DNA of 64,000 nt. Origin: Patescibacteria group bacterium (GTDB lineage: Bacteria; Patescibacteriota; Dojkabacteria; J137). This document shows positions 1 through 58,916 of the stretch, one piece after another (the first letter of the stretch is position 1; every line of letters begins with the position of its first letter). Both the position numbers and the translations under genes were made by a program. The notes under the pieces are model-generated. The model had not been told where the DNA came from. It saw only the letters and a program-made list of their open reading frames with translations, and did not search any database. The stretch spans positions 598,229 through 662,228 of the forward strand of contig BOLA01000001.1 in NCBI GenBank assembly GCA_016861265.1, read 5' to 3'.

Positions 1-761
1 TACTACTTTCTGACTTAAAAGAAAAATCCCAAAAGTTAGACCTAGTAGAATTTATTAATTACGTACTAGAGAAAACAGGATATGTTGAGATGCTTAAAGA
101 CGGTACCCTAGAAAATGAATCAAGAATAGAGAACATTAAAGAGTTAATTTCGGTTGCAAGTAAATATCAAAATGATCCTGCTCCTGAAGGTTTAGAAAAT
201 TTCCTAAACGAAGTAACCTTACTTGAAGGTTTTACAGAAACAAAGGAATCTTCCAACTATGTAACTCTAATGACCATTCATGCGGCCAAGGGTTTAGAGT
301 TTGACTATGTATTTGTAGTAGGTATGGAGGAAAACCTGTTTCCGCATACAAATTCCATGACTGATATTAAAGAGATGGAAGAAGAACGTAGACTGGCATA
401 TGTGGCAATCACAAGAGCAAAGAAGAAATTATTCCTAACACATGCCTCAAAAAGAAAGTATTTTGGAATTATCCAAATGAATCCTGTCTCCAGATTTGTG
501 AGTGATATAAATACAGATGTAGTTGACTTCGAATCTAACTATTCCGATGGATATTCAAGCGTTAATCTTGATCCATGGGAAGAGAAGGAGGAGTACGTTC
601 CAGAAATAAATTTAAAAATAGGGGATAAAGTTAAACACGAATACTTTGGTAAGGGTGTAGTAAAGTCGGTGTTCGGTACCAACATAGAAATTGATTTTGG
701 GCCAATATATGGCGTTAAGGAGTTAATGTTGGAATATGCAAGGCTAGAGAAATTGAGCTAA
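1..761 (+). CDS. UvrD/PcrA-family superfamily-1 DNA helicase, C-terminal fragment (5' end lies outside the window)
   Basis: Frame of ORF 90..761 is open back to the window start. Translation carries the C-terminal UvrD-type helicase motifs (TIHAAKGLEFDYVFVVGMEEN, LAYVAITRAKKKLFLTHA) and the characteristic C-terminal tail. Confidence 0.8.
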   Translation, partial: LLSDLKEKSQKLDLVEFINYVLEKTGYVEMLKDGTLENESRIENIKELISVASKYQNDPAPEGLENFLNEVTLLEGFTETKESSNYVTLMTIHAAKGLEFDYVFVVGMEENLFPHTNSMTDIKEMEEERRLAYVAITRAKKKLFLTHASKRKYFGIIQMNPVSRFVSDINTDVVDFESNYSDGYSSVNLDPWEEKEEYVPEINLKIGDKVKHEYFGKGVVKSVFGTNIEIDFGPIYGVKELMLEYARLEKLS

Positions 762-1163
762 TTACAGTATTTTCTTTACACAAGCATTGTTCTCACAAAC
801 AGAGTATTGGTTGCTGTCACAACCTATAAGAGTTGCCGAGCATGAATTAGCTTTACAGTAATACTTGTTATGTGTGCCAATATTGCAGTCTTGAAGGTAT
901 TCGGGCCTTTCTCTGCAGTCATCATTTTCAAAACAAAGAGTTTTATTAACTTCCATTTGCCTAATCTCATCATCAGTTGCAGGGTTGCTTTTTCTATATT
1001 CGGCGTCTCCTTGTTGAACTTGAATTTGTTGCTGAGCTCTAATGCTGGTTGAAATACCTTTAGATACCGATTCTACACTAAGACCTTTCGATATTAATAA
1101 AAGCAACAGAATGAAAGCAATAAAAATAAAGGTTGATATAATTAGTAAAAGTCTTTTATTCAT
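762..1163 (-). CDS. hypothetical Cys-rich secreted or membrane-anchored protein
   Basis: 133-aa ORF with an N-terminal hydrophobic segment (LLLIISTFIFIAFILLLLLI) followed by a domain with about 10 Cys. No recognisable family. Confidence 0.4.
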   Translation of the reverse strand: MNKRLLLIISTFIFIAFILLLLLISKGLSVESVSKGISTSIRAQQQIQVQQGDAEYRKSNPATDDEIRQMEVNKTLCFENDDCRERPEYLQDCNIGTHNKYYCKANSCSATLIGCDSNQYSVCENNACVKKIL

Positions 1164-1199
1164 AATCTAATTCTAAAGTTTCCTTTTTTATAATTCAAT

Positions 1200-2099
1200 A
1201 TGAAGTTTGGAAAAGTAGAATCACTAATCGAGTTAGAAAATTTAGATCTGTCTTTGCCTCTTGAACCACATGAGAATGAAGCCTACCCATCTTCAATCGA
1301 TAGAAATGCTCAGATTAAGGTTTTTATAGGTGCCCCTGCGTGGGGTGTTAAAGATTGGAAAGGTAAAATATACCCTGAAAAACTAAAATCCGAAGAATAT
1401 TTAAATTATTACGCTAAGTCATTTAACTCTATAGAACTAAATACAACCCACTACAGGCTGCCCGAACAATCTGATATCTATAACTGGCTTAAGCAAGTGC
1501 CGTCAGATTTTTTATTTTGTCCTAAAGTTACTCAATCAATAAGTCATTTTAGCGGCCTTACAAATAAATTAAAGGTAGAGGAGTACTTTAATAGGATGAA
1601 TTCATTTGGTACGAATCTAGGACTCCATTTTTTGCAGCTGCATGAAAATTTTTCTCCTAAAAGATTTGCAGACCTGTCTAAGTTTATTAACTACATACCA
1701 AAAGGAACTAAGCTTGCAATTGAACTTAGGCACCCAGACTGGTTTAGGGATCAGGGAATATTCAATTACTTAAGATCAAAAGGCATTGGCACTGTAATTT
1801 CGGATACAGCAGGACGAGGAGATGTCTTGCATATGAATATTACCGCACCGTTTACAGTTATTCGATTTGTGGGTAATAATTTGCACCAAACGGATTATCA
1901 AAGAATAGATGATTGGGTAGAAAAAATAAAACAATGGAATGATAAAGGGTTAGAAGAAATATTCTTTTTTGTACACGAGCCACAAGAATTAGCCTGTCCC
2001 GAGATCTCAGATTATTTTATTCAGACCCTCAACAAGAATGAATTAACAACATCGGCAAGTATTAAATTTGTGCAACAACAGGATCTGTCGCTTTTCTAG
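1200..2099 (+). CDS. DUF72 (YecE-like) family protein
   Basis: N-terminal pattern FIGAPAWGVKDWKGKIYP...YAKSFNSIELNTTHYRLP...W....P.DFLFCPKVTQSISH matches the conserved DUF72 core. Confidence 0.75.
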   Translation: MKFGKVESLIELENLDLSLPLEPHENEAYPSSIDRNAQIKVFIGAPAWGVKDWKGKIYPEKLKSEEYLNYYAKSFNSIELNTTHYRLPEQSDIYNWLKQVPSDFLFCPKVTQSISHFSGLTNKLKVEEYFNRMNSFGTNLGLHFLQLHENFSPKRFADLSKFINYIPKGTKLAIELRHPDWFRDQGIFNYLRSKGIGTVISDTAGRGDVLHMNITAPFTVIRFVGNNLHQTDYQRIDDWVEKIKQWNDKGLEEIFFFVHEPQELACPEISDYFIQTLNKNELTTSASIKFVQQQDLSLF

Positions 2100-2100
2100 T

Positions 2101-2121
2101 GGTCACCAGTCAAGGGTGACC
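2101..2121. terminator. perfect 7-bp inverted repeat (GGTCACC-N7-GGTGACC) between convergent genes, with no U-tract
   Basis: Seen directly in the sequence. No T-run on either side, so it is only a weak terminator candidate. Confidence 0.3.
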
Positions 2122-2128
2122 TTCTGGA

Positions 2129-2335
2129 CTAGGAATTGTCATCCCCGGTTTTTTCTTCGGGAAGAAATCTGAATACTTTACTTATTCCTCCCCCGAGATG
2201 GACAGTTACATATTTAGTAACGGAACTAGGATTTTGTTCCTCCTGTTTTTCATCAAAATCTTCTTTAGGTTTGCCTTTTCTAGCTCTCCTTCGAAGTGCT
2301 TCCCTTATCTCTTCGATCTCCTTTGATGTTGGCAT
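2129..2335 (-). CDS. small (68 aa) charged hypothetical protein
   Basis: An internal ATG is preceded by a strong Shine-Dalgarno (GGAGGTG, 5-nt spacer) on the minus strand. The track ORF 2129..2374 starts 13 codons further upstream without an RBS. Confidence 0.45.
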   Translation of the reverse strand: MPTSKEIEEIREALRRRARKGKPKEDFDEKQEEQNPSSVTKYVTVHLGGGISKVFRFLPEEKTGDDNS

Positions 2336-2419
2336 CTTGACACCTCCATTGACTGGCCAAGAATTATGCAACAATAACTATAATTGATCAATAGAATCTA
2401 CAATACTTTAGTAGTATAA

Positions 2420-3112
2420 TTGCCCCATAGTTTTTATATTGTAGGTGTGAAATTTGATATTCTTACAACATTCCCTGAATCTTTTTCAGCAATACAGCAG
2501 AGTATTGTAAAACGAGCTGAGAACAAAGGATTGATTGAGATAAAGATACATAATTTAAGAGACTTTACACTTGATAAGCATAAAACTACCGATGACTCTC
2601 CGTTTAGCGGGGGAGCAGGTATGCTTATGAAAATAGAGCCCATTTACGCAGCCCTAAAATCTCTAGGCGTTTATCCGAATAGGGATTCTAGAACTAAGGT
2701 AATTCTAACAAGTGCAAAAGGTATGCTTTGGAAACAATCAATAGCGCAAGACTGGTCACAAAATTTGGATCGAATTGTAATTATCTGCGGACATTACGAA
2801 GGGGTGGATCACAGAGTGGTGGAGCATTTAATTGATGGAGAAATAAGTATTGGTGGTTATGTACTTTCAGGGGGTGAGATTCCTGCAATGATCGTTGTAG
2901 ATAGTATAACCAGGCTAATCGATGGAGCTTTAGGTAACACCCTGTCTTTATTAGATGAAAGTCATAATGAGCAGATGGATGCTGAGTATCCGCAATATAC
3001 AAGGCCCGCAATTTTTAAAACTGAAGAAGGTCAAGAATGGGGAATTCCTGAGATTTTGCTATCGGGGGATCACAAAAAGATTGAGGATTGGAAAAAACGA
3101 AACTCGAAGTAA
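2420..3112 (+). CDS. trmD: tRNA (guanine37-N1)-methyltransferase TrmD
   Basis: KFDILTTFPESF, ICGHYEGVDHRV, SIGGYVLSGGEIPAMIVVDSITRLI and YPQYTRPAIF are classic TrmD (SPOUT) motifs. Alternative start GTG at 2447 (VKFDIL...). A TATAAT lies at 2415-2420. Confidence 0.9.
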   Translation: MPHSFYIVGVKFDILTTFPESFSAIQQSIVKRAENKGLIEIKIHNLRDFTLDKHKTTDDSPFSGGAGMLMKIEPIYAALKSLGVYPNRDSRTKVILTSAKGMLWKQSIAQDWSQNLDRIVIICGHYEGVDHRVVEHLIDGEISIGGYVLSGGEIPAMIVVDSITRLIDGALGNTLSLLDESHNEQMDAEYPQYTRPAIFKTEEGQEWGIPEILLSGDHKKIEDWKKRNSK

Positions 3113-3256
3113 ACCTAAAGTAGATACTAGCTGTTTTATTGTATGTAGTCCACAAATGAGTCCACTTGTTACACAAACTTGCGTAACACAGAAAGTCTGT
3201 TGTAGTTTATTTTCTTCTTACTGGGTGATAATATTAGTATTATTACCACTTCAAAT

Positions 3257-3763
3257 ATGTATAATTTTGCATCTTTATTGTCTGGAGGTGATTTAAGGTC
3301 TATTGGAGAGTCAGATAAGGTAGTTGCGATAGTTTTGAAGAATCAAAGTCTTTTCGGTGATTTATTTAAGTGTTTATATTCTTCGGATTCTGTAGTCAGA
3401 ATGCGTGCAGCTGACGCGATAGAGAAGGTTACAAGAAGGCATCCCCAATTGCTTCAGCAATACAAAGTTAACCTAGTTGATGATATCTCTAGGATAAATC
3501 AAAAAGAAGTTCAGTGGCATTTTGCAGAGCTAATAACCAGGGTAAATTTAACCGCTTCTGATTTGTCTCATGTAGTAAAGGTTCTGGAAGAAAATATCGA
3601 AGCCTCCAAAAGTAATATTGTAAGAATATTCTCAATACAAGCAATCTATGACCTTTCTTTAAAACATAAATATTTAATTGACACAATTAAGTTAATACTT
3701 GAAAAGTATAAAGATGATGAAAGTCCTGCGGTAAAAGCCAGGGTGAATAAGTTGCGAAAGTAG
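3257..3763 (+). CDS. hypothetical all-helical protein (HEAT/ARM-like?)
   Basis: 168-aa ORF with no TM segment and a helical, repeat-like composition. No confident family assignment. Confidence 0.4.
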   Translation: MYNFASLLSGGDLRSIGESDKVVAIVLKNQSLFGDLFKCLYSSDSVVRMRAADAIEKVTRRHPQLLQQYKVNLVDDISRINQKEVQWHFAELITRVNLTASDLSHVVKVLEENIEASKSNIVRIFSIQAIYDLSLKHKYLIDTIKLILEKYKDDESPAVKARVNKLRK

Positions 3764-3774
3764 GGATTAAAAAA

Positions 3775-3848
3775 TCGGAGTGGCGGGGCTCGAACCCACA
3801 ACCCCACGCTCCCAAAGCGTGTATTCTAGCCAATTGAACTACACTCCG
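3775..3848 (-). tRNA. tRNA-Pro (anticodon TGG)
   Basis: The reverse complement folds as a cloverleaf: acceptor CGGAGTG/CACTCCG, D-stem GTTC/GAAT, anticodon stem CACGC/GCGTG with loop TTTGGGA (anticodon UGG, G37), T-stem GTGGG/CCCGC with loop TTCGAGC, discriminator A. No CCA is encoded. Confidence 0.85.
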
Positions 3849-3905
3849 ATGAATGCAGGAAATTATAACGAATTGTAGGACTTCTGTCTAATGGGAAAAC
3901 ATATT

Positions 3906-3933
3906 AAAAAAGACACCCCCTGGTGTCTTTTTC
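3906..3933. terminator. rho-independent terminator hairpin (AAAAAGACACC-CCCT-GGTGTCTTTTT), bidirectional
   Basis: GC-rich stem flanked by A-run and T-run, 3' of the minus-strand PIN gene. Confidence 0.6.
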
Positions 3934-3949: not shown

Positions 3950-4324
3950 TTATATTTCAACAAAGTTTAGGCCCTTTATTCCACTAAAGTTTCCTTTATC
4001 TTCGGTTAATACGGAATATCCTTTTTGCATTGCAGTTGCTGCTACGTAGCTAACAGCAAGACTAACTTCAGTATTTCTTATAACCTTTGCAGCCTCATCC
4101 GCTAGGGTTTTATTGACCTCTACAACATTAAAATACTTATCAACGAAGTCCTTTACTTCCTTTTCTAGATTTGCATCCTCAAAGGTTCTGCTGGCAAGTA
4201 ATTCTGTGTATGTCGCAATAGAAATTACCATGTTATATTTTTCATAGGCAATTGGAAGGACTCCCTTTCCTGTCTTTAGATATTGCACTATTACACTTGT
4301 ATCTACAATTATTGTTTCTTTCAT
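3950..4324 (-). CDS. PIN-domain ribonuclease (VapC-like toxin)
   Basis: N-terminus MKETIIVDTSVIVQYL has the typical PIN start with the first catalytic Asp. Size is about 124 aa, with conserved acidic residues downstream. Sits 13 bp downstream of the partner ORF. Confidence 0.75.
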   Translation of the reverse strand: MKETIIVDTSVIVQYLKTGKGVLPIAYEKYNMVISIATYTELLASRTFEDANLEKEVKDFVDKYFNVVEVNKTLADEAAKVIRNTEVSLAVSYVAATAMQKGYSVLTEDKGNFSGIKGLNFVEI

Positions 4325-4337
4325 ATTATTAATATAA

Positions 4338-4802
4338 TTAACTAATTAAAGGTCTAATTGCATTTAAGCTGAACTGTCTTTCTTCCTTTCCATCTCTGTT
4401 CCATTCTTGGATTTCGATTGTTCTTGGGAATAGTTTTACTTCTGCAGGTTCTTCAGGAACTTTTTCGGCTACGGGTTGTACTTCTTCTTGAGGGACTTCC
4501 TGTTCGACAATTTCATCGACGGTCTCTTCTGTAGTTTCTTCGATTGCTTCTACTTCTTCTCGTTCCTCTAATTTTGGTGTGGTGAGCCTCTTTTTCTCAG
4601 TTGTTGCTACTTTAACTTCTGGTCCATCGTTATTAATTTCAACACTGTTTTCAATGTCTACCTTTACAATCTTATATCTTACTTTGTTGTAAGAAGTTAG
4701 TGCTATTTCGCCGAATTCGTCCACTATGGCGAAAATATCACCAGTCTTATTTTTTACTTCTGTAAGGGAAGCGATTACTTTACCGTCTTTATTTTTATAC
4801 AT
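4338..4802 (-). CDS. putative PIN-partner (antitoxin-like) protein with a long acidic low-complexity linker
   Basis: 154-aa ORF immediately upstream of, and co-oriented with, the PIN gene. Small N-terminal domain, a Glu-rich tract (EEREEVEAIEETTEETVDEIVEQEVPQEEVQP) and a short C-terminal domain. No recognisable antitoxin fold, so the role is inferred from position only. Confidence 0.4.
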   Translation of the reverse strand: MYKNKDGKVIASLTEVKNKTGDIFAIVDEFGEIALTSYNKVRYKIVKVDIENSVEINNDGPEVKVATTEKKRLTTPKLEEREEVEAIEETTEETVDEIVEQEVPQEEVQPVAEKVPEEPAEVKLFPRTIEIQEWNRDGKEERQFSLNAIRPLIS

Positions 4803-4832: not shown

Positions 4833-4860
4833 ATTATAGCTAATTTATATAAGTTGTCAA
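4833..4860 (-). promoter_or_regulatory. near-consensus sigma-70 promoter for the partner-PIN operon (TTGACA-N16-TATAAT on the minus strand)
   Basis: Minus-strand reading gives TTGACAACTTATATAAATTAGCTATAAT about 30 nt upstream of the ATG at 4802. Confidence 0.6.
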
Positions 4861-4864: not shown

Positions 4865-6583
4865 TTACTCTTGAGATCTTAGCGAGTTTAAAATTTCTTC
4901 AGAATCAGCACCTTCTACGATAATTATATCGCCCGATTTTATAAGGGTTCTGGTAGTAAATAGCAATTCGTTAACATTCCTAGATTTTAGGCTAAGGATA
5001 TCAAGGTAGCTATGTGCAAGCAAAGTGTAAAGTAAGGGATCTGTAGTTACAACTATAGAAACTTTCTGTTTTAATTTTTCAGTTAATCTAGCATAGGATT
5101 TTCTTTTTAATTTCCCCAATTCGCTAACTCCATCGGTTAGCAATATTATTCGTCCATGTTTAAACTTTCTCTTAATATTGTTTGCGTAATCTACAGCAGC
5201 CAGAACTCCTTTTAGGTTGCTGTCTGGGTTACCTGTGGATATTAATAGAGTATGATCATCACCTTCTAGGGTGTATATATTAGTGAATTTATCGGATAAT
5301 TTGCCCACTTTTTCTCTAACTGTTTTTTCGTCAATACCTGTTCGTTTGGCAGCCAGTATTGCCGGTACTAGCTGATGTACTAGGCTTAGTCTGTGTATTG
5401 GTGTTGAGTATTCACTGATCTTGTCTTTGGATTTAAACATGAACTTATAACCTTCAACCGATCTTTTGTAGATCTCTATAAAAAATAGTTCATTAAGTTT
5501 GCTAGATTTTTTATCCAAAAACGAGAAACCAATTTTTTCTCCTGGAAATTTATTCAAATAATGTAGTATATATTTGTTATCAATTGGTGCGATTACGCTT
5601 CCATTGTGATTAGTTCCTTTTATAAGCTCTAATCTTGCTTCTATATATTCCTGTTTATTTTTGAATGAACCATAGTGCTGAACGTCAATGTCTGTGATAA
5701 TTGAAATATCCGGACTAATAATCCTGCAAATGCTTTCTACTTCGCCTTTCTTGAAAGGTTCAATTTCAACTAATAATATTTGGGTGCCAGCTGTAATTTG
5801 GGTAGTTATATCGTAACTTAGTTCTTCTATTGTAGTATAAACATCACCTGTTTTAACAATGGAGTAGTCGTCCTTCAGTAACTTGAATAAGAGTTCCTTA
5901 GTTACTGTTTTCCCTATGCTACCGGTAATGGCAATGACAATAATGTTGTTCCTATATCGAGATAACTTGTCATTCAATTGGTGTACCGCAACTTTATTTC
6001 TAAACCATCCAATAGGGCTGGTAATTAAGATTATTAAAGCTGTGATTATTGGAGAAGCGATATCTAAAAACAAAGCGATTATTGCTGAAAGACCTAGGTA
6101 TACATATACATCGTAGATGGTATACATATTGGCATTGCTTACCCCGGGTAATATCAAGTTTTCTCTTTGTAGAGAAGCAAACGGTAGCGACACAATTATT
6201 ATTAGAAAGCTTACTAGTATACTTAATAATGTTAATACAACTGTATTTCTGGTGTTAATTCTTATGGATTCTGATTTACCGGAAAATACTTTTTCTAGAA
6301 GCATAAAGATTTCCACGGCCCAAATTGTGTATGCAATTAAGACTCCTATACTTGAAGTGTAAACAGAAACAACTAGCGTACAAGTTAAACTGAATACAAT
6401 ATATTTAAGTAGCGTGAGTAGAAAATCCCTGTTGTTAGGAAGATGGTCCCACCTAATAAAATTATAAAAACGCTCAACTCTGTACTGCTTTTGCTGCCAT
6501 AAGTGTAGATTCCAAAGTACATTCTTGAATAGAATCACTACTGGAGGAAGCCAAAATAGGACTACTAAGACTAAAAATTCCAT
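4865..6583 (-). CDS. Mur ligase family protein (MurF-like central and C-terminal domains) fused to an N-terminal polytopic membrane domain
   Basis: About 190 N-terminal residues contain 4-5 hydrophobic helices. They are followed by the Mur ligase P-loop IVIAITGSIGKTVTKELL, a MurF-like ISIITDIDVQH motif and the C-terminal ISTGNPDSNLKGVLAAV region. Confidence 0.65.
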   Translation of the reverse strand: MEFLVLVVLFWLPPVVILFKNVLWNLHLWQQKQYRVERFYNFIRWDHLPNNRDFLLTLLKYIVFSLTCTLVVSVYTSSIGVLIAYTIWAVEIFMLLEKVFSGKSESIRINTRNTVVLTLLSILVSFLIIIVSLPFASLQRENLILPGVSNANMYTIYDVYVYLGLSAIIALFLDIASPIITALIILITSPIGWFRNKVAVHQLNDKLSRYRNNIIVIAITGSIGKTVTKELLFKLLKDDYSIVKTGDVYTTIEELSYDITTQITAGTQILLVEIEPFKKGEVESICRIISPDISIITDIDVQHYGSFKNKQEYIEARLELIKGTNHNGSVIAPIDNKYILHYLNKFPGEKIGFSFLDKKSSKLNELFFIEIYKRSVEGYKFMFKSKDKISEYSTPIHRLSLVHQLVPAILAAKRTGIDEKTVREKVGKLSDKFTNIYTLEGDDHTLLISTGNPDSNLKGVLAAVDYANNIKRKFKHGRIILLTDGVSELGKLKRKSYARLTEKLKQKVSIVVTTDPLLYTLLAHSYLDILSLKSRNVNELLFTTRTLIKSGDIIIVEGADSEEILNSLRSQE

Positions 6584-6699: not shown

Positions 6700-7026
6700 A
6701 TGAACGTAGATGATTTTACAAAGCTTTTATTGGCTATTGCAGTTTCCTTTGCAATAGTTATATTGGCTTGGGGTTTATTTAGAATCCTAAATAATTTGGC
6801 AGGATCTATACAAGATCTTCGAAAAGCACTTAAAAATACATCGACTCTATCGGATTATGTACTCGAGGACTATTTAAAAGGTAGAGAAGAGGTTTATTCG
6901 CTGCTGCGCAATTTGCACGACTTTAAATCCTCCTTTGTAGATCCAGTAAGGAATATAGCAAAAATTACCAATATGTTAGGTTCCTTAAGGAAGAGGAAGG
7001 GTGGATACGCCGATAGTCAAGAATAG
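6700..7026 (+). CDS. small membrane protein (DUF948-like: N-terminal TM plus helical domain)
   Basis: TM segment LLLAIAVSFAIVILAWGLF followed by a charged helical region. The family call is tentative. Confidence 0.4.
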   Translation: MNVDDFTKLLLAIAVSFAIVILAWGLFRILNNLAGSIQDLRKALKNTSTLSDYVLEDYLKGREEVYSLLRNLHDFKSSFVDPVRNIAKITNMLGSLRKRKGGYADSQE

Positions 7027-7093: not shown

Positions 7094-7387
7094 ATGTCAA
7101 GTAAGAAATCAAGATTCAACAAGGAAAAAACCGACAAAATGAAGGTAATTTCTAAGTTTGGTGCACATGAAAAAGATACTGGATCTCCAGCTGTACAAGT
7201 GGCTCTATTAACAGAAAGAATTAAATACCTAACAAATCATTTAAAATCACATAAAAAGGATAAGCATTCCAGAAGAGGTTTGCTTAAATTAGTAGGCGAA
7301 AGAAGAAAACTAATTTCCTACATGGAAAGATCTTCAGATGATAAAGTATCTGTAACAAAATTTCTAAAACAAGTTGGTTTAGATTGA
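7094..7387 (+). CDS. rpsO: 30S ribosomal protein S15
   Basis: [46 protein letters not shown] is the S15 signature. 97 aa. Confidence 0.9.
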
Positions 7388-7404
7388 TAATTCCTATAAA
7401 TTGT

Positions 7405-7428
7405 AAGCCCTCGAAAGAGGGCTTTTTT
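7405..7428 (+). terminator. rho-independent terminator after rpsO (AAGCCCTC-GAAA-GAGGGCTT-TTTTT)
   Basis: Perfect 8-bp stem, GNRA-like loop, U-tract. Confidence 0.75.
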
Positions 7429-7478
7429 ATTACCTTTGCTTTCTTTAAGTCTTTTTTCTATGTAATAATGTATGAACT

Positions 7479-8585
7479 ATGAAGTTTCCGTTATTCAAAA
7501 AGAAAAAAGAGTCATCAAAGTCTCGTCCGGCTTACGTAAATATGCGTCCTAGAATTGATAATTCTAATATTTTGGCGCAGGCAAAAAAAAGAAAGCAGAA
7601 GCAGTTATTAACTAAAAGGGCTGAATTTATATCACCTCAGATTAAAAGTTTGCCGTTGTCTAAAATTTTATTTACTTTCGTTCTGTTGACCCTATTAATT
7701 GGGGCATTTATTTTTCTAAGGAATACGACTATTTTTGATGTAAAAGTTGTTGAGGTTATTACTGATAAGTCGGAGAGTTATAGTCTTGTTAAGGAAATTG
7801 CTGATAAGTATATTTCTAAAAATATTATCTTTATATCTTCTTCTGAAATTGAAAATTCAATAAAATCAGAATTATCCTCTGTTCATACTGTATTCGTGAA
7901 TAAAACTTTGGATGGTAAATTAAAGGTTGAGATTATTGAGGATGCCCCTGTGTATTACGAAGCTAATAATTCTGGAATTTATTTAATTAATCAGAGTGGG
8001 GGAGTAATGGAAGTAATTGAGCCAGAAACAAAGCTTACTTTCAATGAAACAGAATTATTGTTAAGGGACAACAAGCTTCCTGCCGATTCAGATCAGGTTA
8101 GAATTAAATATTTGGAGGGTTTTAGCGAGGAAGAGCGCTCCAAGATAATATGGAAGGATGTTGAAAGGGAAGAAAAAGAGGCCGTTTTAAATCAAATGAA
8201 GCAGGATTTGGACAACAAGATAAATGATTTTACTAATAAACTTGCACAACAGCTAAAGGAAGATAAGTATAAGAACTTAATTGGAAGTTATATACCAAAT
8301 AACGAAAATTATTCCGTAGGGGATAAAGTTCCTTTGGAAAGATTAAATTTTTTATCCATTGTTTTGGATTTCTTTAAAAGTAAGAATCTGAATTCGACAA
8401 AAGTTGTCTGGGATTCTGATTATTCTCTGGAAGTGTTCTTACAAGACAATCCTAGCGTTTTGTTGTCAGTTAAAAGAAGTTATTCATCACAATTTATAGA
8501 TTTGAACACTCTTATTTACTATGGACAATTTAGTGGAGCAAGGGTGGTTGATGTGAGAAGCAATAACTATTCTGTGGTAAGATAA
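7479..8585 (+). CDS. ftsQ: cell-division protein FtsQ/DivIB-like (POTRA domain), with an extended C-terminal region
   Basis: Basic N-terminus, single TM (ILFTFVLLTLLIGAFIFL), then a POTRA-like segment (IFDVKVVEVITDKSE...KLKVEIIEDAPVYY). Lies immediately upstream of ftsA-ftsZ. Confidence 0.6.
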   Translation: MKFPLFKKKKESSKSRPAYVNMRPRIDNSNILAQAKKRKQKQLLTKRAEFISPQIKSLPLSKILFTFVLLTLLIGAFIFLRNTTIFDVKVVEVITDKSESYSLVKEIADKYISKNIIFISSSEIENSIKSELSSVHTVFVNKTLDGKLKVEIIEDAPVYYEANNSGIYLINQSGGVMEVIEPETKLTFNETELLLRDNKLPADSDQVRIKYLEGFSEEERSKIIWKDVEREEKEAVLNQMKQDLDNKINDFTNKLAQQLKEDKYKNLIGSYIPNNENYSVGDKVPLERLNFLSIVLDFFKSKNLNSTKVVWDSDYSLEVFLQDNPSVLLSVKRSYSSQFIDLNTLIYYGQFSGARVVDVRSNNYSVVR

Positions 8586-8700
8586 GATTAATTGAATTGC
8601 TTGAAATAACAAAATCGAAATTGTAAACTATACTAGCAAATAAAAACCCAAATACAATGGGGTAAAGTGAAATTTTTATTGATATTAAACTACTTAATGT

Positions 8701-9987
8701 ATGGCAAACATAATAACCGCTATTGATATTGGCTCCCATAAAGTCTGTGCAGTAATAGCTATCGTTGACGACGAAGGAAAAGCAAAGGTGATAGGTGAAT
8801 CTTCTTACCCGGCATACGGAATTAAAAAAGGAGAGATTACAGGAATTGATGAAGCTATTAACTCAATTGCTTCTGCATTAACAGGTGCTGAAAGAATGGC
8901 AGGTTTAACTGTTTCTTCTGCGTACGTAACCATTAATGGTAAGCAAATAATATCAAATAATAACAAAGGAGTAGTTGCTATATCAGACAGTGAGATTAGT
9001 GAAGATGATGTATTTAGAGCATTGGAACAAGCAAAGACTGTTGCGATTCCTCCTGCAAGAGAAATTATTCATTTAATACCGAGACAATTTATTGTTGATC
9101 AACAAAGTGGAATTAAGGTCCCAATAGGAATGACTGGTACAAGATTAGAAGTAGACGCACATATAATCTCTGCGCCTACAACTGCAATTCACAATTTACA
9201 AAAATGTATTCAGAGTATAGGGTTGCGAATAGACGGAATCGTATTTAGCGGTTGGGCTGCTGCACAATCCGTGTTAACCCAAACAGAAAAAGAGTTAGGG
9301 GTACTATTACTAGACTTCGGAGGAGGAACCGTCTCAATTACAACGTTCGTAGAGGATTCCATAACTTACTCAACTTCAATTCCCTTTGGTGGAAGTAATA
9401 TTACACGAGACCTTGCTGCAGGTTTAAGGTTATCTTTAGACGATGCAGAGAAAGTCAAAGTTAGAGCAGAGGAAGTTTTTAGATCTGCAGATATGGCAGG
9501 ATCGAAAGATAAAGATGACGATGATAAACCAAAGAAAACCGATATTCTTGATGTTAGTCAACTAGATATAGAAGGTGTTAAGACCATTTCTCGGAAATTA
9601 TTTACAGATATAATTGGAGCTAGGGTTGAAGAAGTCTTTGATCTAATAAAAGCAAATATTGAACAATCGGGTAATGATTTCAAATTGCCTGCGGGAATTG
9701 TTATAACCGGTGGTAGTGCTTTAGTTCCAGAAATTACTGCTCTTGCTAAAAAGAGTTTTGGAGTGCCAGCAAGAATCGGAAATCCAAAGGGTCTAGAAGG
9801 TCTCGTAGATGGAATTTCCTCTCCAGCTTACTCTGCGGCTCAAGGTTTAATACTGTATGCATTAGGTGACGAAGTATACCGAGGCGATAGTAAGTTCTCA
9901 TCTAATAGCGGTTCCAAAAAGAAGGGTGGTTCACAAGGTGGATTATTTGGAAAGTTAGGTGGAATTTTCAAGAATATTCTTCCCTGA
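8701..9987 (+). CDS. ftsA: cell-division protein FtsA
   Basis: MANIITAIDIGSHKVCAVIA..., LLLDFGGGTVSITTF and actin-fold motifs. Sits upstream of ftsZ. Confidence 0.9.
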   Translation: MANIITAIDIGSHKVCAVIAIVDDEGKAKVIGESSYPAYGIKKGEITGIDEAINSIASALTGAERMAGLTVSSAYVTINGKQIISNNNKGVVAISDSEISEDDVFRALEQAKTVAIPPAREIIHLIPRQFIVDQQSGIKVPIGMTGTRLEVDAHIISAPTTAIHNLQKCIQSIGLRIDGIVFSGWAAAQSVLTQTEKELGVLLLDFGGGTVSITTFVEDSITYSTSIPFGGSNITRDLAAGLRLSLDDAEKVKVRAEEVFRSADMAGSKDKDDDDKPKKTDILDVSQLDIEGVKTISRKLFTDIIGARVEEVFDLIKANIEQSGNDFKLPAGIVITGGSALVPEITALAKKSFGVPARIGNPKGLEGLVDGISSPAYSAAQGLILYALGDEVYRGDSKFSSNSGSKKKGGSQGGLFGKLGGIFKNILP

Positions 9988-10166
9988 TTAAAAAACTTGA
10001 ACAATAGCATAATGTTTTAAATACTTATTTTTAATCCGCTTGTTAGTAAATAGAATTGGTGTTTACTTTTTTTGAACGAAGTTTTTTTGTTTTTTACTAT
10101 CTGCTTGAAATATTAGAACTATTATCATAGTATATAAATACGAATTAAATTTTTAGACTTGGTTGT

Positions 10167-11336
10167 ATGTTAGTAAAACCACAGGCTGCACTTTCGGCTA
10201 AGATAAAGGTCGTAGGGGTAGGGGGAGGCGGAAACAATGCGTTAAACACAATGATCAATGAATATAACATCCAAGATGTAGAGTTCATTGCTATAAACAC
10301 AGATGCTCAAGCGTTAATGAATTCTAAGGCAGATATAAAGCTTAGAATAGGAGAGCAGATTACAAGAGGTCTGGGTAGTGGTGGAAATCCAATAATTGGA
10401 AGAAAAGCCGCCGAAGAAAGTGTAGATTTAATTCATGAAAACTTGGCAGGATCAGATATGGTTTTTATTACTGCTGGAATGGGTGGGGGAACAGGAACTG
10501 GTGCCTCTCCAATTGTGGCAGGAATAGCTAAGAACCTAGGAGCATTGACTGTTGGTGTTGTTACTAAGCCTTTCCATTTTGAGATGAAAAGAAGAATGGA
10601 TTCAGCATTAAAGGGGATTGAAGAACTTCGAGAAAAAGTTGATACCTTAATCGTTGTTCCCAATCAAAGGTTGTTGGAAACTATGGATAAGAATGTTCCA
10701 TTTTTGGATGCAATGAAAAAAGCCGACGATATTTTAGCTCAAGCTGTTAAGAGTATTGCTAATCTTATTACCCAAACAGGATTAATTAACGTTGACTTTG
10801 CTGACGTGAGAAGTGTTATGGACAATGGTGGTACTGCACTAATGGGTATTGGAACCGCTAATGGTGAAAACAGAGCAGCAGATGCTTCAAAAATGGCTAT
10901 TGAAAGTCCATTACTAGAAGTTTCTATCGACGGAGCAAAAGGTGTTCTCTTCAATGTGGTTGGAGGTAGAGATCTATCTATGACTGAAATTAGTGAGGCT
11001 GCTGAAATTGTTAAAGAAAAAATTAACCCTGATGCTATATTTATCTTTGGAGCAAGTATTGATCCTGCTTACGAAGACAAATTTGAAGTTACAGTTCTTG
11101 CAACTGGTTTTGAATCAGACTATATAAACTCAGAGCTAATGAATATGGGCATGAATCCCGTAAATTCAATGGGAAATAAACCAGCAAATAGACCACAGGC
11201 TGAACAACCAAAACCTCAAATGTCGAGCGGAATATTAGGTAGTTTAACAAGGCCTAAGCAAAATCAACCTTCCGATGAAGATGATTTAGACTCATTGCCA
11301 TCTTTCTTAAGAAGAAGAAATAACGATAACGAGTAA
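10167..11336 (+). CDS. ftsZ: cell-division GTPase FtsZ
   Basis: IKVVGVGGGGNNALNTMI, the tubulin signature GLGSGGNPIIGRKAAEE, GGGTGTGASPIVA and an acidic C-terminal tail ending in a conserved peptide. Confidence 0.95.
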   Translation: MLVKPQAALSAKIKVVGVGGGGNNALNTMINEYNIQDVEFIAINTDAQALMNSKADIKLRIGEQITRGLGSGGNPIIGRKAAEESVDLIHENLAGSDMVFITAGMGGGTGTGASPIVAGIAKNLGALTVGVVTKPFHFEMKRRMDSALKGIEELREKVDTLIVVPNQRLLETMDKNVPFLDAMKKADDILAQAVKSIANLITQTGLINVDFADVRSVMDNGGTALMGIGTANGENRAADASKMAIESPLLEVSIDGAKGVLFNVVGGRDLSMTEISEAAEIVKEKINPDAIFIFGASIDPAYEDKFEVTVLATGFESDYINSELMNMGMNPVNSMGNKPANRPQAEQPKPQMSSGILGSLTRPKQNQPSDEDDLDSLPSFLRRRNNDNE

Positions 11337-43476: not shown

Positions 43477-43928
43477 GGGGATGCTTTTTAGACAGTAAAC
43501 CTGCATATTAAAAATCAAGTCGGAATTTAGATTATTTGTTCCGTAAAAATAAGTAATCACCAGTAATGGTAAATGACTATAAACGTCAATCAAATTAAAA
43601 CAGCTGTATCAAACGCAGTTGCTAATGTAAAGGCAGCTTTTGCTCCTCAATACAACCTAGCATTTGCTTAATTTGAGCAGTCGTTAATCGAAAAAAAGAG
43701 TAGATTAACCGTTTTTTAATTTCTCTTCCAGTGGAAATTACTAAACGACACTTAGCTGGAACGCAAAATTTATTCTTAGTTTACGAATAGATTCCAAGTT
43801 TAGGTAGACTAGAGTATTTGGTGTTTTGCTAGTTTTAAGCCTTTTACTCTTAAACAAAAACTTGTCTAAGCTTGTAAGAACTTTTAATGTGAGATTTGTT
43901 GGACAGGGATTATCCCTCATCTCCACCA
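43477..43928 (+). ncRNA. ssrA: transfer-messenger RNA (tmRNA, SsrA), about 450 nt
   Basis: 5' GGGGATG pairs with 3' CATCTCC-A-CCA to give a 7-bp acceptor stem with the G3:U70 alanine identity pair and an encoded CCA. An internal tag-like reading frame (...GCA GTT GCT AAT GTA AAG GCA GCT TTT GCT CCT CAA TAC AAC CTA GCA TTT GCT TAA) would give (AV)ANVKAAFAPQYNLAFA*. A hairpin terminator follows at 43929-43960. No protein-coding signal beyond a spurious antisense ORF. Confidence 0.55.
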
Positions 43929-44002
43929 AAAGGGCATCTTTAATTTTATTAAAGGTGCCCTTTTTTGTTATCATTGATGTGCATCTAAATTTAATACAAC
44001 AT

Positions 44003-44887
44003 ATGGACATAACTATCACCCTTTTATATCAGCCAATTTTCAACTTAATAGTCGTTTTTTATAGATTCTTTGGAGAGAACTTGGGTGTCGCAATTATCCT
44101 AATTGCCTTACTTTCCAGACTAATAACTGTACCAATTCTTGTAAAGCAACGAAAATCAATGGTTAAAAACCGTGAATTTACAGAAAAAAGAAAAGAATTA
44201 GAGAAAAAACACAAAAATAATAAAGAAGTATTAGATAAAGAAATGATGGCTTTGAATTCTGAATATCTGCCCGGACAATTAGCAGGTTGTCTTCCTATTA
44301 TTCTGCAGCTAATCTTCTTTATTAATGTTTACCAGGTTATTACTAACCTAATTATGCATGGAGCAGAGGCATTTAATAGTTTAGCCTATCCTGCAGTCGG
44401 CCAATTTCCAAGCGGATATCAGTTAAATTATTCATTCTTAGGAATCTTCGATTTAGGTAAAGCTCCTGCAAATTTCTCTAGCGATGGATTAGTCTTCTTG
44501 CCTTATTTAATTCTAATGATTCTAGTAGGTATTACACAGTATTACTCAATGAAGATTACAATGAACATGAGTAAAACAAGTACTACAGAGAATAAGACTA
44601 AGTCAAAGGAAGATAAGAAGAAGGACAAAAGTAAATCTAATCCTGCCTCTGAGGACTTTGCTGAGATTTTGCAGCAATCAACACAACAAACAATGCTATT
44701 ATTTCCTGTTCTTTATACATTCCTTTCGTATAACTTCCAAGCTGGGTTGGCAATATACTGGATTGTTCAGAGTGGTTTTGTTATAATCCAACAGTTCTAT
44801 ATTTCGTGGTTAGATAGGCGTGCAAAGGCAAAGGAGCAAGACTTGGTTCAGCCTGAAGCAATAACTGTAAATGTAAGACCAAAGTAA
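44003..44887 (+). CDS. yidC: membrane protein insertase YidC/Oxa1 family (short, monoderm-type core)
   Basis: The core begins LLYQPIFNLIVVFYRFFGENLGVAIILIALLSRLITVPI, followed by a charged loop and C-terminal TM helices with a basic tail. The track ORF begins at a TTG at 43826 but runs through the tmRNA terminator hairpin, so I favour ATG 44003. Confidence 0.75.
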   Translation: MDITITLLYQPIFNLIVVFYRFFGENLGVAIILIALLSRLITVPILVKQRKSMVKNREFTEKRKELEKKHKNNKEVLDKEMMALNSEYLPGQLAGCLPIILQLIFFINVYQVITNLIMHGAEAFNSLAYPAVGQFPSGYQLNYSFLGIFDLGKAPANFSSDGLVFLPYLILMILVGITQYYSMKITMNMSKTSTTENKTKSKEDKKKDKSKSNPASEDFAEILQQSTQQTMLLFPVLYTFLSYNFQAGLAIYWIVQSGFVIIQQFYISWLDRRAKAKEQDLVQPEAITVNVRPK

Positions 44888-56304: not shown

Positions 56305-56685
56305 ATGAATAAAAAAAAGTTGATCTCAATAATTGTCTTAGCCCAGAGTGTTTTAATGGCATTGCCAGTAGCAGCTCAAGGACTGACTAATGTTAGTCAG
56401 AATTATGCAATTCCTAACCCTACAAGATACAGTAGTCTGGAAGACATAATTAATGCATTGACTTCGCTAATTAGACCTGTCTTTATTATTACATTTGGTG
56501 CAATGATACTTTATGGAGGATGGGTTAGATTAACATCTCAAGGTAATCCGGATAAAGTTAAGTCAAGCTCGCAAATCATAGTTGCAGCAATTGTAGGTTT
56601 TGCAATTGCAGTGTTTGCACCTACAATTGTTGACTTTGCGGGTAAATTGCTAGGTATTCAAGGTGGATTAATACAGAATCAATAA
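56305..56685 (+). CDS. pilin-like protein paralog 1 (VirB2/TrbC-like topology: signal peptide, two hydrophobic helices joined by a short polar loop)
   Basis: Signal (LISIIVLAQSVLMALPVAAQG). Helix-1 (VFIITFGAMILYGGWVRL), loop (TSQGNPDKVKSSSQ), helix-2 (IIVAAIVGFAIAVFAPTIV). Confidence 0.55.
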   Translation: MNKKKLISIIVLAQSVLMALPVAAQGLTNVSQNYAIPNPTRYSSLEDIINALTSLIRPVFIITFGAMILYGGWVRLTSQGNPDKVKSSSQIIVAAIVGFAIAVFAPTIVDFAGKLLGIQGGLIQNQ

Positions 56686-56686
56686 T

Positions 56687-57298
56687 ATGAAACTAAAAGC
56701 TTTATTATTCATAGTAATTACAATAATCCTTAGTTCGGGTATTAAGTTATCGGCACAGTCTACAGACTGTATAGCCCCATATTTTATCCCTGATGATTGT
56801 AGTGTGCCTTATGTACCTGGTAAATCAGGGGGTTATACTGCAGATTTAAATTGTCAGATCGTTCGAATTACTAAACCTGGAACCGAGGAGGCTAAATGTT
56901 GTCCCAATATTTGTGTAAATGAAAATGGTGATAGGGTAAGTGCCCAGCTTCCGTCCGAAATTACGCAGACCGAGGTATTTGGAACTACTATTAGAATTAA
57001 TCCGGATAATTCAGGGACGATTATAAATATACTGTTTACAACAATATTGGGTCTTGTTTCTGTTTACGCAATTGTGAGAGGTATTTATGTTACTGGAGTA
57101 AAAAGACCAATGGCTATTACACCCGACCAAATCGCGGAAATTAATAAAGAACTTACAAATTTAATAATAGGTGTAGTTATTTGCTGGGGCTTTATAATCT
57201 TAATTCAAGTAGTCGCCAACCTATTAGGAGTAGGTCAGTTAAATAATCTAGATATTTCCGGCGGAGAATCTGGAGGAACAATTATTACTATTAAATAA
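56687..57298 (+). CDS. pilin-like protein paralog 2 with an N-terminal Cys-rich extracytoplasmic module
   Basis: Signal, 7 Cys in the first 80 mature residues, then helix-1 / KRPMAITPDQIAEINKELTN loop / helix-2. Confidence 0.5.
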   Translation: MKLKALLFIVITIILSSGIKLSAQSTDCIAPYFIPDDCSVPYVPGKSGGYTADLNCQIVRITKPGTEEAKCCPNICVNENGDRVSAQLPSEITQTEVFGTTIRINPDNSGTIINILFTTILGLVSVYAIVRGIYVTGVKRPMAITPDQIAEINKELTNLIIGVVICWGFIILIQVVANLLGVGQLNNLDISGGESGGTIITIK

Positions 57299-57858
57299 TG
57301 AAGACTTTATTGCTAACAATAATATTAAGCATATTCTTCTTTGCTCCTGTGTATGCACAAGAAAATTCAGGCGGATTAGCAAATCAGACGGTCACATGCG
57401 TTAACTGTACAATAGATAACAATATTGGGCTAGAGGAAATTAGAGTTCCTGTTTTTGCTAGCTTTATTGATTTCAATACTGAAAATGCGAGCATATTTAG
57501 CTGGGTATCGTTCATCGGAGCTTTAGCTACCGTAGGATTGGTTATTTTCTGGATTTTTCTTCTGGTTAAAGCTGGTGTAAGAGGATTGCAGAGCCAGGGC
57601 AACGCAGATACATTGGCTGAGGCATTTAAACAGGTTCAATCGGTACTTATTGGAGCTGCAATCTCACTGTTCTTCCCCCTAGTACTAAGTATTATAGGTG
57701 TATTCTTTGGAATTGGCACTATCTTTAGTTGGCCTAAAATGTTTCAGTTTTGCGATGAGTCGTCTGGTGTTCAATTTTATTATCAGGCTCTGTTAGCTGA
57801 CGATGTAAAAGGAGATAAGTCAGCCGCAGAGGCTAAATGTAACCCAATAGGAGAATAA
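57298..57858 (+). CDS. pilin-like protein paralog 3 with a Cys-containing C-terminal tail
   Basis: Signal. Helix-1 (VGLVIFWIFLLVKAGVRGL), loop (QSQGNADTLAEAFKQ), helix-2, then a C-terminal tail with 2 Cys. Confidence 0.5.
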   Translation: MKTLLLTIILSIFFFAPVYAQENSGGLANQTVTCVNCTIDNNIGLEEIRVPVFASFIDFNTENASIFSWVSFIGALATVGLVIFWIFLLVKAGVRGLQSQGNADTLAEAFKQVQSVLIGAAISLFFPLVLSIIGVFFGIGTIFSWPKMFQFCDESSGVQFYYQALLADDVKGDKSAAEAKCNPIGE

Positions 57859-57859
57859 T

Positions 57860-58291: not shown

Positions 58292-58317
58292 ATTATTTAT
58301 TTTATTAAAATACTCTT

Positions 58318-58806: not shown

Positions 58807-58824
58807 GTTAATTAGAATTTTATA

Positions 58825-58851
58825 AAGCCCAGGCCAAGCCTGGGCTTTTCA
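58825..58851 (+). terminator. rho-independent terminator (AAAGCCCAGGC-CAA-GCCTGGGCTTT) closing the five-gene pilin-like operon
   Basis: Perfect 11-bp stem plus a T-rich tail. Confidence 0.7.
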
Positions 58852-58916
58852 TTTCTTCTTGATTAGCCTTAACCTTTAATCTATAGTGTAATAAGTATTA
58901 ATATTAATAATTTCTC

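What the first reader, a model, noticed from the sequence alone, without database searches (positions are those of the whole stretch)
4865..6583. Mur ligase (MurF-like) in which the N-terminal substrate-binding domain is replaced by a polytopic membrane domain
The central ATP-binding domain and the C-terminal domain are MurF-like, but the first 190 residues form 4-5 TM helices instead of the soluble UDP-MurNAc-tripeptide-binding domain. A membrane-embedded Mur-type ligase could act on a lipid-linked or membrane-proximal substrate. It could also be a CapB/PgsB-like polymer ligase rather than a true MurF.
Basis: partly seen in the sequence, partly recalled or inferred. Interest (0 to 1): 0.5.

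Follow-up and report, generated by a model that had tools for sequence, protein, structure and literature searches.

The report
Membrane-embedded MurF-like ligase, diverged copy
This gene encodes a cell-wall-type (MurF-like) ATP-dependent ligase whose usual nucleotide-sugar-binding head is replaced by a five-helix membrane domain of no known family; it is a diverged copy from an undescribed family in ultra-small (CPR) bacteria that is probably not the cell's ordinary MurF.

Summary
ORF 4865-6583 (-) encodes 572 aa: five N-terminal transmembrane helices (residues 1-195, N-out/C-in), then a cytoplasmic MurF-type central and C-terminal domain. No canonical MurF N-domain exists in any frame.

The membrane domain has no match in Pfam, PDB sequences or PDB folds. 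In 1.84 billion protein representatives it occurs only at the N-terminus of MurF-like proteins (96 clusters).

In most of the family the gene lies between an alpha/beta-hydrolase gene (27/28 loci) and a FemAB-family gene (17/18 loci). The family has Tyr in place of the MurF-invariant His after ELG, and EG in place of KGS. One locus also carries a canonical short MurF. I therefore read the family as a membrane-bound paralogue, not the housekeeping MurF.

The window copy belongs to a sub-clade without these partner genes. It keeps the P-loop, Glu273 and His303 but has lost the C-domain Arg and the DxYN motif. It scores 116 bits against a murF cutoff of 289. Sister lineages in the same synteny have lost the P-loop.

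CapB/PgsB, FolC and cyanophycin readings are rejected. I could not test the substrate, or whether this 1.11-Mb genome holds a separate MurF.

The parts
4865..6583 (-). Complete gene for the 572-aa membrane-embedded MurF-like protein (stop codon 4865-4867)
   Evidence: ORF list and translation. Full-length homologues at 34-100% identity.
5999..6583 (-). N-terminal five-helix membrane domain (residues 1-195), N-out/C-in. It has no Pfam, PDB-sequence or PDB-fold relative.
6446..6526 (-). Conserved cytoplasmic juxtamembrane motif (residues 20-46, KN.LW.L.LWQ.K.YR..RF....RWD), carrying the family-wide W29, Q30, Y34 and R38
   Evidence: Conservation over 94 and 88 family members.
5945..5998 (-). Basic linker helix (residues 196-213) joining TM5 to the ligase
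   Evidence: AF2 helix 177-213. The linker 191-212 has K+R = 5.
5294..5944 (-). Mur ligase central (ATP-binding) domain, residues 214-430. E273, H303, D335 and N336 are retained.
   Evidence: PF08245 E 4e-19. Residue table.
5903..5923 (-). P-loop GSIGKTV (residues 221-227), intact
4868..5293 (-). Diverged Mur ligase C-terminal domain (residues 431-572)
   Evidence: PF02875 only E 0.09. Within the clade the domain is 71-87% identical, so it is under constraint.
5210..5242 (-). Eroded DxYNANP-equivalent loop (residues 448-458, ISTGNPDSNLK). The canonical Asp, Tyr and Asn are replaced. An Asp remains a few residues downstream.
   Evidence: Alignment with 34%-identical relatives that keep NDSYN. 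Column table. Motif counts.
5093..5122 (-). ELG-x6-Tyr (residues 488-497) where canonical and short MurF have ELG-x6-His
6700..7026 (+). Context only: divergent 108-aa small membrane protein, syntenic with the gene in all Saccharibacteria-type loci
7094..11336 (+). Context only: rpsO, FtsQ-like (POTRA), ftsA, ftsZ, in conserved synteny next to the gene
3950..4802 (-). Context only: 154-aa protein plus PIN-domain protein (toxin-antitoxin-like pair) downstream, with its own consensus promoter at 4833-4860

Best explanation
Shown. The gene encodes an integral-membrane protein with a five-helix N-out/C-in domain of no known family. That domain is fused through a basic helix to a cytoplasmic MurF-type ATP-binding domain and C-terminal domain. 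It belongs to a family restricted to CPR/Patescibacteria-type contigs, in which this membrane domain is never found on any other protein.

Shown for the family. The normal setting is a three-gene cassette: alpha/beta-hydrolase, then TM-MurF, then a FemAB-family aminoacyl-transferase. The ligase keeps the Mur catalytic residues. It carries ELG-x6-Tyr and EG where every canonical and short MurF has ELG-x6-His and KGS. In one locus it lies beside a canonical short MurF.

Inferred. The family is a membrane-bound paralogue of MurF. It works at the cytoplasmic face of the membrane on a membrane-held peptidoglycan precursor, most likely lipid I or II, whose pyrophosphate-lipid end would be held by the basic and aromatic cytoplasmic face of the membrane domain (W29, Y34, R38, K60, R112). 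This parallels MurT/GatD and FemX, which act on lipid II. The altered C-domain positions suggest an incoming amine other than, or bound differently from, D-Ala-D-Ala.

The window copy. It belongs to a sub-clade that has lost both partner genes. It keeps the P-loop, Glu273 and His303 and is under purifying selection along its whole length. It has lost the C-domain Arg and the Asp-x-Tyr-Asn loop. Sister lineages in the same synteny have lost the P-loop altogether. I infer that the window protein is still a nucleotide-binding protein and probably a ligase with altered chemistry. I also infer that its membrane domain carries the function that is conserved across the sub-clade. I do not think it is the housekeeping D-Ala-D-Ala-adding enzyme.
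For: Architecture.

Cassette: hydrolase upstream in 27/28 loci and FemAB within 3.5 kb downstream in 17/18 loci.

Diagnostic residues: ELGx6H in 23/24 canonical, 119/120 short and 0/94 TM-family proteins. KGS in 24/24, 120/120 and 2/94.

Co-occurrence with a canonical short MurF in L119. Short N-domain-less MurF is very common in CPR, with 6581 hits.

NJ tree: canonical and short MurF group together (53/53) apart from the TM family.

Window-copy erosion: murF 115.9 bits against 223-261 bits for intact members. R435, D450, Y452 and N453 are lost.

Partner-less relatives in the same synteny lack the P-loop: P0085, P0067 and P0050.

Purifying selection on the ligase domains: 71-87% identity, at least as high as the membrane domain in 7 of the 9 clade comparisons.

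MurT precedent: a Mur ligase acting on lipid I/II but not on UDP-linked precursors (PMC6085368).
Against: No substrate or activity was tested.

Co-occurrence with a canonical MurF is shown in one distantly related locus only (L119, whose short MurF's nearest named relatives are labelled Dojkabacteria), not in the window's genome.

The relative P0017 lies in a Ddl / hydrolase / MurF row, which fits ordinary D-Ala-D-Ala use.

The NJ tree is crude, and the long branches of diverged members could distort it.

An Asp (NPDSN) remains a few residues from the lost DxYN Asp and might substitute.

The Arg column is R in only part of the intact family, with Tyr or His elsewhere, so its loss is weaker evidence.

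The proposed lipid-pyrophosphate binding site rests on conservation and topology only.
Confidence: 0.45

Rival explanations
1. It is the organism's one genuine MurF (UDP-MurNAc-tripeptide:D-Ala-D-Ala ligase). The membrane domain only tethers it next to MraY and the divisome. CPR MurFs have in any case dispensed with the UDP-binding N-domain.
For: MurF is the best family and the best structural match. NCBI and JGI pipelines name relatives MurF. It is the only Mur ligase in the 64-kb window. It is conserved next to ftsQ-ftsA-ftsZ. The P-loop, Glu and His are intact. P0017 follows Ddl. N-domain-less MurFs are normal in CPR.
Against: It scores 115.9 bits against a cutoff of 288.6. It has lost Arg and DxYN. 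It has Tyr for the His, and EG for the KGS, that are 99-100% conserved in canonical and short MurF. Syntenic orthologues lack a P-loop. A canonical short MurF sits beside a TM-MurF in L119. The five-helix domain has conserved polar residues, which is more than an anchor needs.
Confidence: 0.15
2. The window protein is a catalytically dead pseudo-enzyme. Only the membrane domain and the folded ligase shell matter, for example as a scaffold or receptor in the division or cell-wall machinery.
For: The Mur-invariant C-domain Arg and Asp are lost. An acidic C-domain residue binds the ATP ribose in Mur ligases (PMC6085368). The partner genes are lost. Syntenic relatives have no P-loop and no Pfam hit, yet keep the membrane-domain signature and full length.
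Against: The P-loop GSIGKT, E273, H303, D335, N336 and ELG are invariant across the window clade. The central and C-terminal domains are as conserved as the membrane domain, or more so, in most clade comparisons. A nearby Asp could replace the lost one.
Confidence: 0.22
3. It is a CapB/PgsB-like, FolC-like or cyanophycin-synthetase-like polymer or amide ligase rather than a peptidoglycan enzyme.
For: PgsB/CapB is a membrane-associated Mur-superfamily ligase (background knowledge). The superfamily fold is shared.
Against: No PgsB/CapB, FolC or cyanophycin model appears at E<=1 for the window protein. Intact relatives score 223-261 bits on murF against 59 bits or less on cyanophycin synthetase. 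MurF-type ELG and GNxNT motifs are present. The neighbours are FemAB, Ddl and MurF, not pgsC or pgsA.
Confidence: 0.03
4. The hydrophobic N-terminus is an annotation artefact: a wrong start or frame hides a canonical N-domain.
For: None found.
Against: The same N-terminal domain is conserved in 96 cluster representatives. AF2 pLDDT is 93.4. The upstream gap is 116 nt. No PF01225 hit. No other minus-strand ORF overlaps.
Confidence: 0.01

Closest known systems
MurF, UDP-MurNAc-tripeptide:D-alanyl-D-alanine ligase (TIGR01143; PDB 3zl8, 2am1, 4qf5, 4cvm, 1gg4)
   Same: Central ATP-binding domain with P-loop, Mg-binding Glu and His. C-terminal domain fold with the ELG motif. Best sequence and structure match.
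   Different: No N-terminal UDP-MurNAc-peptide-binding domain; a five-helix membrane domain takes its place. Tyr for the invariant His after ELG, and EG for KGS, across the whole family. The window copy also lacks the C-domain Arg and DxYN, and scores far below the family cutoff.
CPR 'short' MurF without N-domain (e.g. L011 419 aa, L119 446 aa)
   Same: Found in the same group of organisms. Also lacks the N-terminal domain.
   Different: Soluble, with about 25 residues before the P-loop. Keeps DSSYNAS, GDMxELGx6H and KGS. Groups with canonical MurF rather than with the TM family. Co-occurs with a TM-MurF in L119.
MurT of the MurT/GatD lipid II isoglutaminyl synthase
   Same: A Mur-superfamily ligase without the UDP-binding domain. 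It acts on membrane-bound lipid I/II rather than on UDP-linked precursors and depends on a partner enzyme (PMC6085368). This is the working analogy for a lipid-linked substrate.
   Different: MurT is peripheral, not integral. It has a DUF1727 C-domain and a GatD glutaminase partner. The sequence match here is marginal (E 0.0057) and no GatD-like neighbour is present. The partner in this family is an alpha/beta-hydrolase.
Natural Mur chimeras, especially MurD-FtsW (survey in PMC10214165)
   Same: Precedent for a Mur ligase fused to a polytopic membrane protein of the same pathway.
CapB/PgsB poly-gamma-glutamate synthase subunit
   Same: Membrane-associated Mur-superfamily amide ligase (background knowledge).
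   Different: No detectable specific similarity. Different neighbours. PgsB has a single anchor helix, not a conserved five-helix domain (background knowledge).

Membership tests
Mur ligase superfamily (PF08245 central domain) | ATP-binding central domain with P-loop GxxGK[TS], Mg-binding Glu and conserved His | tested here: met
   PF08245 69.8 bits against a cutoff of 24. GSIGKT, E273 and H303 present.
MurF (TIGR01143, EC 6.3.2.10) | Whole-protein score at or above the curated cutoff | tested here: not met
   115.9 bits against a cutoff of 288.6. Intact family members score 223-261 bits, also below the cutoff.
MurF (TIGR01143, EC 6.3.2.10) | N-terminal UDP-MurNAc-peptide-binding domain (PF01225 region; profile positions 1-67) | tested here: not met
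   No PF01225 hit. The match starts at profile position 68. Residues 1-195 are a membrane domain.
MurF (TIGR01143, EC 6.3.2.10) | C-domain Arg and D-x-Y-N-A-N-P loop (Mur-invariant Arg and Asp) | tested here: not met
   R435 is N and DxYN is TGNP in the window clade. These residues are present in intact family members.
MurF (TIGR01143, EC 6.3.2.10) | MurF-specific GDMxELG-x6-His and KGS motifs | tested here: not met
   ELG is present, followed by Tyr497. VEG replaces KGS. Counts: ELGx6H in 23/24 canonical, 119/120 short and 0/94 TM-family proteins.
MurF (TIGR01143, EC 6.3.2.10) | Adds D-Ala-D-Ala to UDP-MurNAc-tripeptide | not testable with these tools
   Needs an enzyme assay or complementation.
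CapB/PgsB, FolC, cyanophycin synthetase ligase domain | Specific profile match at or above that to the MurC-F families | tested here: not met
   None is listed at E<=1 for the window protein. Cyanophycin synthetase scores 59 bits or less against murF 223-227 bits for relatives.
MurT (lipid II isoglutaminyl synthase subunit) | MurT profile match, DUF1727 C-domain and adjacent gatD | tested here: not met
   MurT E 0.0057 at 15.6 bits against a cutoff of 800. No glutaminase neighbour.
Membrane-embedded MurF-like family (defined here) | N-terminal five-helix domain with W29-Q30-x-K-x-Y34-R-x-x-R38, K60, R112-N113, D174 and T188-x-P190, followed by a MurF-type ligase with ELGx6Y | tested here: met
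   The window protein carries all these residues. The profile search retrieves only this architecture.
Membrane-embedded MurF-like family (defined here) | Cassette of alpha/beta-hydrolase upstream and FemAB-family gene downstream | tested here: not met
   Neither gene lies at the locus or anywhere else in the 64-kb window. They are present in 27/28 and 17/18 other loci.

The most novel reading that the evidence does not exclude
The five-helix domain is a new lipid-carrier (undecaprenyl-pyrophosphate) recognition module. That would make this family the first integral-membrane Mur ligases, extending or modifying the stem peptide on lipid I/II together with a FemAB transferase and an alpha/beta-hydrolase. 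Partner-less copies such as the window's would be derivatives evolving into pseudo-enzymes whose membrane domain still binds the lipid-linked precursor or the division machinery.
Probability: 0.25. Interest if true: 0.8.

Novelty: new variant of a known kind. Interest (0 to 1): 0.55.

Why it matters
All characterised MurC-F ligases are soluble enzymes that act on UDP-linked precursors. MurT is the known Mur-type enzyme that acts on lipid II, and it is peripheral.

A conserved family in which the UDP-binding domain has been replaced by a dedicated polytopic membrane domain, locked in a cassette with a FemAB transferase and a hydrolase, would add a membrane step to stem-peptide assembly in CPR bacteria. 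These organisms are poorly understood and mostly uncultured.

The family also offers a natural series from intact enzyme to P-loop-less protein in one synteny. That series is useful for asking what a membrane domain does once catalysis is lost.

On the practical side, annotation pipelines name these proteins MurF. For the window copy that name is probably misleading.

Tried and rejected
1. Wrong start or hidden N-domain. Rejected.

2. CapB/PgsB, FolC or cyanophycin synthetase. No specific matches.

4. Looking for a second MurF in the source genome.
- The window holds no other Mur ligase.
- I tried a contig-length fingerprint (1,114,243 bp) on the list of short MurFs. It found no match in the 120 rows shown.
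- The question stays open.

5. The third homologue search, using a family alignment, returned the same candidate set as the first and added nothing.

6. Literature searches for membrane-anchored or transmembrane MurF, and for CPR or Saccharibacteria MurF, found no description.

7. P0017 as a family member. It shares a short N-terminal motif by eye and the hydrolase neighbour, but the membrane-domain HMM does not match it. I treat it as a related but separate case.

8. Asn-to-Pro at residue 333 and Asn-to-Asp at 298 as signs of inactivation. Dropped, because the S. pneumoniae MurF structure sequence (2am1/3zm5 chains) has APAD and TLVGEAH at these positions.

9. dN/dS was not attempted. At about 70% amino-acid identity, synonymous sites would be saturated.
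Full report
**The observation**

The minus-strand ORF 4865..6583 is real and encodes 572 aa. Pfam finds a Mur ligase central domain at residues 219-395 (E 4e-19) and a weak C-terminal domain at 468-558 (E 0.09). The best NCBIfam family is murF TIGR01143. It scores only 115.9 bits against a cutoff of 288.6, and the match covers profile positions 68-408 of 418, so the N-terminal domain is absent. The seven best PDB sequence matches are all MurF, aligned from about residue 99 to the end of the solved enzymes. The ten best fold matches of the AlphaFold2 model are also MurF; the top hit is 3zl8 at E 1e-18 with TM-score 0.71 on the target. MurE, MurC, MurT and cyanophycin synthetase follow.

Residues 1-195 hold five hydrophobic segments. 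An AlphaFold2 model of this part alone, built with 88 homologues, is confident: pLDDT 93.4, pTM 0.87, helices at 2-31, 36-45, 54-71, 74-101, 111-136, 158-175 and 177-210. Loops 20-53 and 98-113 and the linker 191-212 are rich in Lys and Arg. The 72-75 turn and loop 135-158 are not, and loop 135-158 varies in length across the family. This gives N-out/C-in topology with the ligase in the cytoplasm.

A wrong start is excluded. The upstream gap is 116 nt, no other minus-strand ORF overlaps, and the same N-terminus is conserved in all relatives.

**The membrane domain**

I searched a profile of the domain alone against 1.84 billion cluster representatives. It found 96 proteins. Apart from fragments and one marginal last hit, all are 505-625 aa with the domain at residues about 1-215. 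Most carry a P-loop at about residue 225-250. The domain therefore occurs only as the N-terminus of MurF-like proteins.

It has no recognisable relative:
- Pfam on 23 members gave only scattered single-member hits at E 0.04 or worse.
- A PDB sequence profile gave nothing better than E 0.15.

Residues conserved across the family are P13, W29, Q30, Y34, R38, K60, R112, N113, D174, T188 and P190. With the topology above, most lie on the cytoplasmic face. D174 sits inside TM5.

**Genomic setting of the family**

Loci came from genome and metagenome collections. I scanned them with ad hoc profiles. An alpha/beta-hydrolase gene lies immediately upstream in 27 of 28 non-redundant loci, often overlapping the start. 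A FemAB-family gene lies within 3.5 kb downstream in 17 of 18 loci.

The hydrolase matches no specific family above cutoff; its best hit is EstV-type lipase at 120 bits against a cutoff of 300. The FemAB protein weakly resembles FemX.

In Saccharibacteria-type loci the cassette sits next to a small membrane protein, rpsO, an FtsQ-like gene, ftsA and ftsZ, as in the window.

Record labels for the family are inconsistent: Saccharibacteria, Dojkabacteria, and one obviously misbinned Brocadiaceae. I therefore say only CPR/Patescibacteria.

**Is it MurF?**

Intact family members score 223-261 bits on the murF model. They keep the P-loop, Glu, His, Asp and DxYN. They differ cleanly from canonical MurF at two C-domain motifs:

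| Motif | Canonical MurF | Short CPR MurF | TM family |
|---|---|---|---|
| ELG-x6-His | 23/24 | 119/120 | 0/94 |
| ELG-x6-Tyr | 0/24 | 1/120 | 59/94 |
| K[GA]S near the C-terminus | 24/24 | 120/120 | 2/94 |
| [LIVF]EG near the C-terminus | 0/24 | 17/120 | 64/94 |

Three further points bear on this:
- CPR bacteria commonly have a soluble MurF of 419-450 aa with no N-domain at all, giving 6581 hits at E<=1e-20.
- In locus L119 a TM-MurF and such a short canonical MurF lie in one gene row: hydrolase, TM-MurF, DegT aminotransferase, NUDIX, FemAB, short MurF. Ddl lies nearby.
- A neighbour-joining tree of the ligase parts puts canonical and short MurF in one group (53 of 53), separate from the TM family. 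The tree is crude and long branches may distort it.

Together these favour a membrane-bound paralogue over the housekeeping enzyme.

There is a counter-example. P0017 comes from an organism that reads UGA as Gly. It is a MurF with two N-terminal helices in a Ddl / hydrolase / MurF row. It keeps His after ELG, and the membrane-domain HMM does not match it.

**The window copy**

It belongs to a clade of 69-100% identical proteins. Their loci lack both partner genes, and neither gene is anywhere in the 64-kb window.

The clade keeps GSIGKT, E273, H303, D335, N336 and ELG. It has replaced several MurF-conserved residues:
- NN 250/251 is TT.
- The C-domain Arg is Asn, Ser or Thr.
- DxYN is TGNP. 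The flanking LKG.LAAVD motif anchors this alignment.

An acidic C-domain residue binds the ATP ribose in Mur ligases (PMC6085368). An Asp a few residues downstream (NPDSN) might take over that role, so inactivity is not proven.

Within the clade the central and C-terminal domains are 69-87% identical. In most pairwise comparisons this is at least as high as the membrane domain at 62-84%. The whole protein is therefore under constraint.

Other partner-less relatives sit in the same synteny: P0050, P0059, P0067, P0085 and L095. They show further erosion. P0067 and P0085 have no P-loop and no Pfam hit, yet keep full length and most of the membrane-domain signature.

**Mechanism**

Shown:
- An integral-membrane, cytoplasm-facing MurF-type module.
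- A family cassette with FemAB and a hydrolase.
- Systematic changes at positions that are invariant in MurF's amino-acid-binding domain (general domain roles from PMC10214165).

Inferred:
- The membrane domain replaces the UDP-binding domain in holding the acceptor. The acceptor would then be lipid-linked, by analogy with MurT, which amidates lipid I/II but not UDP-linked precursors.
- The incoming group differs from D-Ala-D-Ala, or is bound differently.
- The window copy is a nucleotide-binding, probably still catalytic, but re-specialised derivative. Its sub-clade is drifting towards non-catalytic use of the membrane domain.

Rivals, scored in the rival-explanations section: the only true MurF with a tether (0.15), a dead pseudo-enzyme (0.22), a CapB/FolC/cyanophycin-like ligase (0.03), an artefact (0.01).

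**Limits**

I could not establish whether the window's own genome has a separate MurF. The window's proteins map to an NCBI contig of 1,114,243 bp, but the tools could not reach the rest of it. No biochemical evidence exists. Literature searches found no description of such a protein. A survey of Mur chimeras lists MurD-FtsW as a ligase-membrane protein fusion but nothing like this one.

**Verdict**

This is a new variant of a known kind: a Mur ligase with a new membrane domain and a conserved cassette. The window's copy is a diverged, partner-less member.

Noticed in passing
window 4833-4860 (-), 3906-3933: A perfect sigma-70 consensus (TTGACA-16-TATAAT) lies in the 62-nt gap right after the ligase stop codon. 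It precedes the 154-aa gene and the PIN gene, which look like a toxin-antitoxin pair. A bidirectional terminator-like hairpin follows the PIN gene.
   Followed up: no
L127 1-6743 versus window 1-3900: Another strain of the same organism carries a resolvase/recombinase, an OLD-like AAA_15/TOPRIM nuclease and a LexA-like repressor next to the PIN pair. The window has tRNA (3775-3848), a HEAT-repeat gene and trmD at that position. This is a likely mobile-element integration site.
   Followed up: no
L119 9152-16014: One gene row holds an alpha/beta-hydrolase, TM-MurF, a DegT-type aminotransferase, NUDIX, FemAB and a short canonical MurF, with Ddl and a second FemAB gene nearby. It looks like a cell-wall precursor island with two MurF-like ligases.
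   Followed up: partly
L011 9935-11194; L119 14674-16014; P0151-P0270: CPR bacteria commonly encode a soluble MurF of 419-450 aa with no N-terminal UDP-binding domain but all canonical C-domain motifs. There are 6581 hits at E<=1e-20.
   Followed up: partly
L085 8083-11386: A Ddl / alpha/beta-hydrolase / MurF row, where the MurF has two N-terminal helices, in an organism that reads UGA as Gly. Trp in the database protein aligns with conserved Gly, and the ORFs are broken under table 11.
   Followed up: partly
window 56305-59810: A row of six small membrane proteins, three of which match T4SS_pilin (PF18895) in the precomputed annotation. It follows a ClpB-like gene.
   Followed up: no
window 43477-43928 (+): tmRNA (Rfam 64 bits). 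Its 3' part overlaps the start of the mechanically listed ORF 43826-44887, so that ORF probably starts further downstream.
   Followed up: no
window 6700-7026 (+): A 108-aa protein with one N-terminal helix and no Pfam match. It is always divergent from the ligase (or from its hydrolase partner) and next to rpsO in Saccharibacteria-type loci.
   Followed up: no
whole window: The window's proteins are recorded on an NCBI contig of 1,114,243 bp, so the source is probably a closed or nearly closed CPR genome that is large for this group. GC content is about 35%.
   Followed up: partly
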